Position numbers: made by a program | Assembly: GCF_040938485.1 (NCBI RefSeq) | Contig: NW_027270981.1 | Span: forward strand, 992,001 to 1,056,000 | Direction of reading: 5' to 3' | Length of the DNA stretch: 64,000 nt | DNA from: Diadema antillarum | Taxonomy: Eukaryota | Part shown: positions 25,701 through 27,213 of the stretch, piece by piece | Numbering within the stretch: position 1 is the stretch's first letter | Layout: the number at the start of each line of letters is the position of its first letter

Positions 25701-27213
25701 ATTGCCCGGTATTGTGCTATACGATCCAGTAGGAGGCAAAAACAGTGCCAGTTTTAAGATATGAATGGGGGTCCGATATATGCGAAAATCTTAACTCATG
25801 AGCATGAAATATCCTACCACATTCCTCTTTGGAAGGAGCAGACTGCACCCTCGAAATGGTCCATCCCAACACAGGTGATTGATGCTATGGATCCCTTGTA
25901 GTTCACCGCACATCAGGTTATTGGCAATAGCCTGCAAACAGTATCAATTCTTCACAATATGACTTGTGAATGAATGCATAGAACCATGTTCATGTGTAGG
26001 TCAAGCTGTAACAGATACCTGATGCAAAATGGAAAGCTCTGCTAGCTGTTCTTGCATGAACAATTTCAGAGTACTATAAAAACCATTATTTTTTGCAAGG
26101 TCTATATGATTGACAGTCACTTGAAAGAAATACACTGCATATGTACAGTGTTGTGTCTGTCCTGGAACCTTATTGAGTGTATGAAATGATAGAAAGTGTA
26201 ATTCTGGAAGCATGTTCTCTAGTTACACAGAAATATGATCTAAAATTAGTGCAGACTCATCCATGTGTCTTTAAAGTAATACATGACTGTCAGATTCAGT
26301 TGAGACAGTAATTGAAACTGCAGCTTGATTTCTGATATGTATCCAATGAAGATTTACTTTGTAATTGGTGTTGTATTAAGGAATGTGTCCTGAATGCTGG
26401 CATGAGACCCTCAAAATGCTGTTTCTTCCACTTCCTTTGAAAATTTGACAACAGCATGAAGATCTTTTGGGCAAACAAGCTATTGACAGTATGCAGTCTA
26501 CAAATATCAGATTTCTGTGAGTGCAACGGTAGTCCAGGGAACTGTGTATCCCATGTAGCTGCTTCCAGTTAATTAAGATTACGAATTTCAGCTCTCAATA
26601 AGAGTTTAATACCAAGTTGAAGAGCAATGTGTTTCCACCTTTTGCAGTTGTTGGAACAACTCAACCTCGGTCAGGAAGGATTATATCAGAGCAGTGAAAC
26701 ATGTTTACAGCTGGGGTATTTATATAAAATGCTCAGGTTGATGGCTGTGAGTTATCAAAATTGCTTTCTATATAGTGCTTCTGATACTCACAGTTTCAAG
26801 TTGTTCACAGTATTGCTCATCCATTCCTACAACGACATGCAAGGGTTAAAATGTCCATTAAGCGTCTCAAAGTCCAGAAAGAATTACTGGATATTCATAG
26901 AAAATCAGTACAGTTGGTCAGATGTTGCATCAAAGTGCCTTGATGATTCACTCCTAAGACACTGTAATGGCAAGGAGATGGCTGTAGTTCAAAGGTCAGT
27001 TGGACTTGCCATTAAGATTGAGGCTTGAAGTTGAGGTCCTGCTAGTCTTAGGTGGGATGAGCAAGTGTTGCCCATCTAAAATTGCTGTCCTTTAGACCAG
27101 ATTTAAAATGGAAGCCTGATGTACTTGTGAGAAAGTCTTGACTCATCCACATAAATGGTCTTACCATACTTCTCTTTGCAAGGAGCAGGAAGGGTGCAGG
27201 GATGTATCCAGGA

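What the first reader, a model, noticed from the sequence alone, without database searches (positions are those of the whole stretch)
26296..26443. Ghost seventh TLR: intact acceptor and start codon fused to TLR-B upstream DNA after deletion of the gene body
Seen: TLR-A-like upstream sequence, acceptor and ATG (26403) encode MPAFRTHSL, then switch at ~26375 into TLR-B's upstream module. The result is a 35-codon ORF ending at 26296. The same deletion removed everything of TLR-B's own upstream beyond ~1.25 kb. Inference: the relic acceptor lies upstream of TLR-B's acceptor (25148), so any transcript starting further upstream meets a competing splice site. It could act as a decoy that lowers TLR-B output, or TLR-B may now run from the dead gene's regulatory region.
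Basis: partly seen in the sequence, partly recalled or inferred. Interest (0 to 1): 0.68.

Follow-up and report, generated by a model that had tools for sequence, protein, structure and literature searches.

The report
Leftover front end of a TLR gene
Between two intact Toll-like receptor genes lies the real but probably inert front end (upstream DNA, start codon, nine codons) of another copy, an ordinary scar of rearrangement in a fast-changing immune gene cluster.

Summary
The window carries six intact tandem TLR genes on the minus strand. At 26375-27189 there is a seventh gene front. It is 87% identical over 827 columns to the first 14 nt and upstream DNA of the 11439-14198 gene, TLR-A. It keeps the family's start codon (26403) and the acceptor-like motif, found 7 times in the window against 0.05 expected. 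After nine codons it switches, across about 10 nt of microhomology, into position -1258 of TLR-B's own upstream region.

- **No sign of a lost gene body.** No other TLR coding fragment exists. The relic is one edge of a 7.5-8.3 kb copied block whose other edge lies in the last ~100 nt of the TLR-B/TLR-C coding sequence. A partial copy that was never complete fits at least as well as a deleted seventh gene.
- **The decoy or borrowed-promoter idea lacks support.** TLR-B keeps 1.26 kb of family-conserved upstream DNA. The relic has lost its own upstream beyond -787.
- **The 35-codon ORF is at chance level**.

No RNA, population or orthologue data could be reached. Verdict: real, ordinary, low interest.

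The parts
26431..26443 (-). Acceptor-like motif of the relic (TTTTCAAAG|GAAG), with the AG at 26436-26435
   Evidence: one of 7 matches in the window. The other 6 sit at the same place before the six intact genes. Expected 0.05; position -3 is A, as in TLR-A, against C in B-F.
26375..26403 (-). Relic start codon (26403-26401) plus the TLR-derived codons (MPAFRTHSL)
   Evidence: It aligns with the first ATG of B-F. The family's second ATG is changed (ACA) in the relic. TLR-A has lost the first ATG (AAG) and starts at the second.
26296..26403 (-). 35-codon ORF plus stop. The last 26 codons read through TLR-B's upstream DNA.
   Evidence: One search gives the translation. One search shows the length is at chance level (13.8% of 2281 intergenic ATGs; P = 0.235); no Pfam match for the 90-residue stop-to-stop frame.
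26372..26382 (-). Non-homologous junction. Both parental sequence types resemble each other here over about 10 nt, so the exact break cannot be placed more precisely.
   Evidence: the sequence tracks the TLR-A start on one side and the upstream family (A, C, E, F at about -1240) on the other. That it is microhomology is inferred from the paralogues.
26404..27189 (-). Relic upstream region (-1 to -787), sister to TLR-A's upstream 14199-14996. It includes the family-conserved GT at 26638.
   Evidence: K2P 0.110; (ghost, A) 100/100 support, branches 0.052 and 0.058..
27190..27676 (.). 487 nt of unrelated DNA with poly-C/poly-A direct repeats at both ends. It stands where TLR-A has 14997-17087, which includes the family-conserved upstream 14997-15863.
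   Evidence: (family D3).
27677..29895 (.). Spacer copy, colinear with 17088-19374 in the A-B interval
   Evidence: 87.2% over 2322 columns. (92.7% substitution identity, K2P 0.077).
29896..32103 (.). Transposon-like insert, present only in the relic's unit. It has inverted ends and TTAA at both sides. The right-hand limit is approximate.
   Evidence: I1: arms 29909-29981 and 32013-32085. (29892-29974 inverted against 32020-32103). (flanks read directly). The piggyBac-type assignment is recalled, not tested.
32384..33791 (.). Downstream flank of TLR-C, colinear with TLR-B's downstream flank 19588-22317
   Evidence: 77-91% by window; (B, C) 100/100 for the last 140 nt of CDS plus 700 nt downstream.
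25117..26374 (-). TLR-B's own upstream region, 1258 nt, truncated at the junction. It holds the acceptor motif 25144-25156 and the conserved GT at 25262-25261.
   Evidence: it groups with TLR-F's upstream (95/93), not with the relic.
22318..25116 (-). TLR-B, an intact 932-codon gene just downstream of the relic
   Evidence: dN/dS 0.37-0.39 against its paralogues.
14185..14996 (-). Parent-type sequence: the start of TLR-A (gene 11439-14198) and its upstream region

Best explanation
The feature is a real, non-processed fragment of a TLR-A-type gene. It keeps 787 nt of upstream DNA, the acceptor-like motif, the start codon and nine codons. It sits at a non-homologous junction with position -1258 of TLR-B's upstream region.

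My best reading is that it was born truncated. A block of about 8 kb was copied into the TLR-C/TLR-B interval. In gene orientation the block runs from the last ~100 nt of a TLR-B-type coding sequence, through its downstream flank and spacer, into TLR-A's upstream region and the first 29 nt of the family reading frame. One edge lies in homologous sequence at the conserved 3' end of the coding region. The other edge was sealed by microhomology inside TLR-B's upstream. That join overwrote or displaced whatever lay beyond -1258.

This fits repair synthesis or template switching, or the junction of a tandem duplication. No full-length seventh gene is required.

Today the relic most likely does nothing. 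TLR-B most likely runs from its own retained upstream region.

Shown: the homology, the junction, the block structure and the absence of other coding remains. Inferred: the order of events, the mechanism of joining, the splicing role of the motif and the lack of function.
For: - **Relic and junction:**
- **No other TLR coding remnant:** tblastn with 6 proteins gave 10 HSPs outside the genes, and only the 2 on the relic have E < 0.1.
- **Block structure:** 14185-26374 is colinear with 26375-~38000.
  - Kinship is special and recent only from the relic to the extreme 3' end of the B and C coding sequences.
  - K2P is 0.110 (upstream), 0.077 (spacer) and 0.157-0.199 (downstream flank).
  - The last 45 codons of B and C are 97.0% identical, against 88-92% for B with the other copies.
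  - 6 of the 16 B+C-specific sites, out of 222 informative sites, fall in 22357-22423.
- **Trees:**
  - (ghost, A) 100/100 in the upstream region.
  - (B, C) 100/100 in the 3' end plus downstream.
  - (A, B) 95/96 and (C, D, E) 100/100 in the first 1800 nt of the CDS.
  - So TLR-C is not a TLR-B copy over most of its length.
- **Age:** coding dS among A, B, C and F is 0.36-0.46, so the block is much younger than those genes.
- **Microhomology:** the paralogues suggest it at the join.
- **Prior:** partial duplicates are frequent among young duplicates (PMC3449122, passages).
- **Inertness:**
  - TLR-B keeps 1258 nt aligned to the family, with its own conserved GT and AG.
  - The relic lacks everything beyond -787.
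  - The ORF is at chance level.
  - The nine retained codons stop before the hydrophobic stretch of the leader.
Against: - Divergence inside the block is not uniform. Identity is 87-97% by window up to 19744 and 77-86% from 19745 to 22363. More than one event, or a later gene conversion, may be involved.
- A deletion would leave exactly the same junction, so the sequence of this one haplotype cannot decide.
- TLR-C is itself a mosaic. It is 92-94% identical to E in codons 100-400. A TLR-B-like precursor of C could therefore have been overwritten, which would rescue a two-gene duplication followed by deletion.
- The relic's upstream has not decayed faster than TLR-A's. Derived changes are 34 against 31 (27/23 and 13/10 under stricter outgroup agreement). 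There is thus no positive sign that it is unconstrained.
- Inertness is argued from anatomy alone. No expression data were available.
Confidence: 0.5

Rival explanations
1. A complete seventh TLR, a TLR-A-type paralogue, once lay between TLR-C and TLR-B. A single deletion from codon 10 to -1258 of TLR-B removed its body, its downstream flank and TLR-B's distal upstream.
For: - The junction geometry fits a deletion.
- The A-B interval is colinear with the relic-C interval, as a two-gene duplication would leave it.
- The array demonstrably rearranges. TLR-D is a C(5')/E(3') hybrid with windows of 99-100% identity.
- The microhomology would equally suit a deletion.
Against: - It needs more events: a two-gene duplication, an overwriting of nearly all of the TLR-B-like copy so that it became today's TLR-C, and then the deletion.
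- In the first 1800 nt of CDS, C groups with D and E (100/100) and B with A (95/96). B-C kinship starts only in the last ~100 nt.
- No coding remnant of the supposed body survives anywhere in the window.
Confidence: 0.35
2. The relic is active in cis on TLR-B. Transcripts might start in the relic's retained upstream and do one of three things:
- use the relic acceptor and carry its ATG and 35-codon ORF as an upstream ORF;
- splice on to TLR-B's acceptor, making the relic an alternative first exon or promoter;
- interfere with TLR-B's own promoter.

This concerns function and is independent of origin.
For: - The relic keeps the conserved GT (26638), the AG (26436-26435), the ATG and 787 nt of upstream that is 90% identical to that of the intact TLR-A.
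- Its branch is no longer than TLR-A's.
- It lies 1.26 kb upstream of TLR-B on the same strand.
- TLR-B has lost the family's distal upstream blocks.
Against: - TLR-B has its own full proximal upstream with every conserved block from -1 to about -1240.
- The relic's upstream beyond -787 is replaced by unrelated DNA. That removes half of the best-conserved family module.
- The relic's acceptor has A at -3, which I recall to be a weaker form.
- The ATG context is TCTC-ATG against ACC-ATG in B-F.
- Equal branch lengths are also what neutral evolution of both upstream regions would give.
Confidence: 0.12
3. The junction is an assembly error in a repetitive tandem array.
For: - The array holds stretches 95-100% identical between units, the kind of place where assemblies go wrong.
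- No read data could be consulted.
Against: - The join lies between two sequences that share only about 10 nt, not inside a long repeat.
- Both sides have diverged from every other copy: 10% from TLR-A, and K about 0.43-0.5 from the other upstream regions. They are therefore not collapsed copies.
- There are no N runs in the window.
Confidence: 0.04
4. The conserved motif before each ATG is not a cis-splice acceptor. It could be a proximal promoter element: its GGAAGTGGAAGT core resembles ETS-type sites (recalled). Or it could be a trans-splice acceptor. In either case the decoy argument would need recasting.
For: - Only one GT is conserved in all six independent upstream regions, and its context is weak in E (GTCATC) and F (GTCATT).
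- So no convincing shared donor was found.
Against: - The stretch between that GT and the AG is the least conserved and most indel-rich part of the upstream alignment (majority fraction 0.50-0.57, with large gaps in B and E). The 20 nt before the AG and the 33 nt after it are the most conserved (0.87-0.88). This is the pattern of an intron end.
- The organism is unknown, so trans-splicing cannot be judged.
Confidence: 0.15

Closest known systems
Partial (structurally incomplete) gene duplicates
   Same: A copy that holds only one end of the parent gene together with its flanking DNA. It ends at the edge of the duplicated block and reads on into unrelated sequence. This class makes up 21-76% of young duplicates in the animal data sets reviewed in PMC3449122 (passages read).
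   Different: Only 29 nt of the reading frame were copied, so nothing protein-like can come of it. Whether it was born partial or became so by deletion is not settled.
TLR pseudogenes and fragments in expanded invertebrate TLR families (sea urchin)
   Same: [quoted passage not shown] The present array also has single-exon coding regions and signs of rapid turnover.
   Different: That survey counted only sequences with a TIR domain, so a front-end relic like this one would not be in it. The organism of this window is unknown, so no membership in those subfamilies is claimed.
Hybrid genes made by unequal crossing-over in tandem arrays
   Same: The same array holds one. TLR-D is C-like in codons 0-300 (99-100% identity) and E-like in codons 600-945 (99-100%).
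   Different: Those joins lie in homologous sequence and keep the gene intact. The relic's join is non-homologous, running from codon 10 to upstream position -1258, and it destroys the gene.
Upstream ORFs and alternative 5' exons that tune a downstream gene
   Same: An ATG with a short ORF and splice-like signals lies upstream of a gene on the same strand.
   Different: There is no evidence that the relic is part of any TLR-B transcript. TLR-B's own upstream lies between them.

Membership tests
Toll-like receptor genes (single cysteine-cluster type: LRR ectodomain, transmembrane segment, TIR domain) | LRR ectodomain plus TIR domain in one reading frame (flanking genes) | tested here: met
   for B and C, LRR_8 E 4.5e-87 and 1.4e-88, TIR E 2.5e-05 and 1.4e-04, above Pfam's cut-offs. 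These are 2 of the 6 genes. The other 4 are 72.8-91.4% identical in protein; the best solved relative is TLR3, E 1.5e-46.
Toll-like receptor genes (single cysteine-cluster type: LRR ectodomain, transmembrane segment, TIR domain) | The relic itself encodes LRR or TIR sequence | tested here: not met
   Only nine family-derived codons remain. No Pfam match. No further coding fragment anywhere.
Non-processed (duplicated) pseudogene fragment | Homology to a parent gene that extends into its non-coding flank, with no sign of retrocopying | tested here: met
   Homology covers 787 nt of upstream DNA and a further 2.2 kb of spacer. The coding part is the minor part.
Non-processed (duplicated) pseudogene fragment | Loss of the parent's reading frame or of most of it | tested here: met
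   Family homology ends at 26375. The frame stops after 35 codons.
Partial duplicate (born truncated) | The truncated end is the edge of the duplicated block, and no stage with a complete copy existed | tested here: inconclusive
   The truncated end is the block's edge, and the other edge lies in the 3' end of the B and C coding sequences. A deletion would look the same. Other haplotypes or species are needed.
Regulatory upstream element of TLR-B (decoy acceptor, upstream ORF, alternative promoter) | The relic is contained in, or drives, transcripts that reach TLR-B's coding exon | not testable with these tools
   No transcript data. Anatomy argues against it: TLR-B has its own 1258-nt upstream, and the relic's upstream is cut at -787.
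Regulatory upstream element of TLR-B (decoy acceptor, upstream ORF, alternative promoter) | Sequence constraint on the relic beyond neutral expectation | tested here: inconclusive
   Derived changes are 34 in the relic against 31 in TLR-A's upstream. Tree branches are 0.052 and 0.058. This symmetry fits both being neutral or both being constrained.

The most novel reading that the evidence does not exclude
The relic is a working upstream transcription start or first exon. It would place TLR-B under TLR-A-type control, or damp it through the relic's ATG and short ORF. A rearrangement scar would then have rewired one receptor of the array after TLR-B lost the family's distal upstream blocks.
Probability: 0.08. 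Interest if true: 0.5.

Novelty: new member of a known kind. Interest (0 to 1): 0.2.

Why it matters
- **Annotation and evolution.** The relic marks one non-homologous join among several homologous ones. It shows that this immune-receptor array is a patchwork built by repeated copying and exchange.
- **Gene models.** The relic could seed a false short gene model, or a wrongly extended 5' end for TLR-B.
- **Biology.** TLR-B is the only one of the six genes without the family's upstream blocks beyond about -1260. That makes it a candidate for diverged expression. This point does not depend on the relic doing anything.

Tried and rejected
**Donor site search.**
- I looked for a shared splice donor to define a first exon. 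Only one GT is conserved in all six independent upstream regions: 25262 in B and 26638 in the relic. Its context is weak in E and F, so the exon structure stays open.
- I did not score splice sites with a matrix. That would have meant typing weights from memory.

**Relative-rate test.** The relic's upstream against TLR-A's gave no asymmetry, so it does not settle constraint.

**Hidden genes and RNAs.**
- Rfam on 24000-34000: 0 matches at gathering score.
- Pfam on 4 overlapping or neighbouring open frames, including the relic's 90-residue stop-to-stop frame: 0 families.
- tblastn for remains of a gene body: none.

**Dating argument, dropped.** I tried to argue that TLR-C must be older than the copied block from C-E dS of 0.276. 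I dropped this because C and E are 92-94% identical in codons 100-400.

**Organism.**
- It was not identified. The solved-structure search and the Atlas say only that this is an animal TLR not close to any vertebrate TLR type with a solved structure.
- I do not take the window for human. It holds six tandem single-exon TLRs of about 930 residues whose best solved relative is TLR3, at only E 1.5e-46.

**Left unchecked.**
The one open contig collection holds bacteria and archaea only, so it was not used. No orthologous locus, other haplotype or transcript could therefore be consulted.
- Paper supplements were not requested.

**Spliced model.** The candidate leader exon and the ATG exon were only examined in place.

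Full report
**Setting.** The window has no N and 38.7% G+C. Six open reading frames of 919-945 codons lie head to tail on the minus strand:

| Gene | Coordinates |
|---|---|
| A | 11439-14198 |
| B | 22318-25116 |
| C | 33792-36629 |
| D | 40195-43029 |
| E | 46971-49769 |
| F | 55921-58716 |

B and C, the two scanned, carry many LRR matches and a TIR domain. All six are 72.8-91.4% identical in protein. The best solved relative is TLR3, at only E 1.5e-46. The Atlas search gave only animal TLR clusters. The organism could not be named, and I do not take it for human.

**The observation.** A BLAST of the B-C interval against the window shows that 26375-27189 matches 14185-14996, the start of gene A and its upstream DNA. 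The match is 86.9% over 827 columns (E = 0). Counting substitutions only it is 89.9%, K2P 0.110.
- In the alignment of all seven start regions, the relic has the family's first ATG at 26403.
- It then encodes MPAFRTHSL, against MLAFRMHSS, MAAFRMHSL, MTASRMHSS and MTAIRMHSS in B-F.
- Gene A has lost that ATG (it reads AAG) and starts at the family's second methionine. The relic has lost the second one.
- The motif TTTTYRMAGGAAG occurs exactly 7 times in 64 kb. It stands before the ATG of each of the six genes and in the relic at 26431-26443. The expected count is 0.05, and 0 of 100 shuffles reach 7.
- The relic and gene A share CAAAG where the others have CACAG or TGCAG. So 'intact' means the AG is kept in a form I recall to be weaker, and the form is not a lesion special to the relic.
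- The frame runs 35 codons to a stop at 26298-26296. That length is ordinary: 13.8% of 2281 intergenic ATGs do as well, and the chance that 26 further codons stay open is 0.235.

**The junction.** Homology to TLR coding sequence ends at 26375. The next bases align with the upstream regions of A, C, E and F about 1240 nt before their ATGs, and run on colinearly to B's ATG.
- The coding parent and the upstream parent resemble each other over about 10 nt at the join. The break can therefore only be placed within 26372-26382.
- A microhomology-mediated join is plausible.
- In A, C, E and F the family's upstream homology continues beyond this point, for example A 15863 with C 38281, and A with E and F. 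B's upstream is thus truly truncated at 1258 nt.

**What surrounds it.** The whole stretch 14185-26374 is colinear with 26375-~38000, but the degree of kinship changes along it.

| Segment (A-B unit) | K2P against the relic-C unit |
|---|---|
| Upstream of A | 0.110 |
| Spacer 17088-19374 | 0.077 |
| Downstream flank of B | 0.157-0.199 |
| Coding sequence of B | 0.185 |
| Upstream of B | 0.19-0.30 |

- By 150-nt windows, identity is 87-97% up to 19744 and 77-86% from there to 22363.
- Synonymous divergence among A, B, C and F is 0.36-0.46. The copied block is therefore much younger than the genes.
- Of 222 informative sites in the coding alignment, 38 join A with B (all in the first ~2400 columns), 54 join C with E and 16 join B with C. 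Six of those 16 lie in the last ~70 nt, 22357-22423.
- The last 45 codons of B and C are 97.0% identical, against 88-92% for B with the others.
- Trees agree:
  - Upstream: (ghost, A) 100/100, with branches of 0.052 and 0.058, and (B, F) 95/93.
  - First 1800 nt of coding sequence: (A, B) 95/96 and ((C, D), E) 100/100.
  - Last 140 nt plus 700 nt downstream: (B, C) 100/100.
- The copied block therefore runs from the extreme 3' end of the B/C coding sequence to codon 10 of the A-type gene. It has one edge in homologous sequence and one non-homologous edge, which is the relic.

**Origin.** Three histories fit.
1. *A partial copy.* Repair synthesis or template switching began in the conserved 3' end of a TLR coding region. 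It copied B's downstream flank, the spacer and A's upstream, and ended 29 nt into A's reading frame, joined by microhomology to B's upstream. This takes one event.
2. *A tandem duplication* with breakpoints at A's codon 10 and B's -1258, followed by overwriting of most of the B-like copy to give today's C.

No remnant of a body exists. Among 10 tblastn HSPs outside the genes, only the two on the relic have E < 0.1. Partial duplicates are common among young duplicates (PMC3449122, passages). Fragmentary TLR relics are reported in the sea urchin TLR expansion (PMC3367398, passages).

Against a single event stands the uneven divergence inside the block. C's own mosaic nature keeps histories 2 and 3 alive. 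I put 'never complete' at about one half, 'deleted' at about one third, and an assembly error at a few percent. That last figure is low because the join is not inside a long repeat, and both sides differ from every other copy.

**Function.** The upstream regions of all seven copies align over about 1.2 kb.
- Exactly one GT is conserved in the six independent ones (B 25262, relic 26638). The AG of the motif is conserved in all.
- The stretch between them is the least conserved and most gap-rich part (0.50-0.57). The 20 nt before and the 33 nt after the AG are the most conserved (0.87-0.88).
- This fits a short leader intron, 115 nt in B and 204 nt in the relic, as an inference. But the donor contexts in E and F are weak. 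A promoter element or a trans-splice site cannot be excluded.
- B has every conserved block from -1 to about -1240. It is not proven here.
- The relic's upstream is cut at -787. There, 487 nt of unrelated DNA flanked by poly-C/poly-A repeats (27190-27676) replace A's 14997-17087, which holds the family-conserved 14997-15863.
- Hence the family's distal blocks are absent from both B and the relic, and B cannot borrow them.
- The relic's upstream has changed no faster than A's: 34 against 31 derived sites. That fits neutrality of both or constraint on both.
- No RNA family and no protein family hides in the surroundings.

I conclude that the relic is most likely inert. There is a small chance (about 0.1) that it yields transcripts acting on B.

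**Limits.**
- No transcript, population or orthologue data could be reached.
The candidate leader exon and the ATG exon were only examined in place.
- These points are recalled and not tested here: the order of acceptor strength, the donor consensus, the ETS-like reading of the motif, and the piggyBac-type reading of the insert at 29896-~32103.

**Verdict.** This is a real gene relic at a real rearrangement junction. Its origin by deletion is unproven, and a partial copy is at least as likely. The proposed regulatory roles are unsupported. It is an ordinary kind of feature for a tandem immune-receptor array.

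Noticed in passing
40195-43029: TLR-D is a hybrid. It is 99-100% identical to TLR-C in codons 0-300 and 99-100% identical to TLR-E in codons 600-945. The units C, D and E repeat with offsets of 6403 and 6753 nt. This looks like a very recent unequal crossing-over.
   Followed up: partly
22318-26374: TLR-B is a three-way mosaic. Its upstream groups with F (95/93), its first 1800 nt of coding sequence with A (95/96), and its 3' end plus downstream with C (100/100). BLAST homology of B to every other copy breaks off 43-51 nt before its ATG.
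   Followed up: partly
14196-14213: TLR-A has lost the family's first ATG (it reads AAG) and starts five codons later at the family's second methionine. The relic shows the opposite pattern.
   Followed up: partly
36594-36629 and 42994-43029: TLR-C and TLR-D carry a 12-nt insertion in the leader and an in-frame upstream ATG that adds 12 codons (MYGITRDHFEGT) before the family start.
   Followed up: no
29896-32103: A transposon-like insert of about 2.2 kb with inverted ends (arms 29909-29981 and 32013-32085), TTAA at both flanks, ends reading CCC...GGG, and internal 150-nt repeats. It is present only in the relic's unit.
   Followed up: partly
27190-27676: A 487-nt insert bounded by direct poly-C/poly-A runs (27214-27246 and 27600-27636), with a short G+C-rich palindrome at 27622-27659. 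No other copy exists in the window.
   Followed up: partly
20246-21246 and 4552-5375: Satellite-like arrays. One has a 158-nt unit x 6.4 copies (97% matches) in the A-B spacer and is absent from the relic's unit. The other has a 168-nt unit x 4.8 copies.
   Followed up: no
16025-16794 and 16893-17448: In TLR-A's far upstream there is a 770-nt element with 49-nt inverted ends (92% identical) and a 556-nt palindrome. The relic's unit has only one arm of the palindrome.
   Followed up: no
44041-44394: A G+C-rich insertion of about 353 nt in TLR-D's upstream region, absent from TLR-C's otherwise 95% identical upstream.
   Followed up: no
39911-40075 and 46687-46851: An 81-nt unit is duplicated in tandem just downstream of both TLR-D and TLR-E (97-98% matches).
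   Followed up: no
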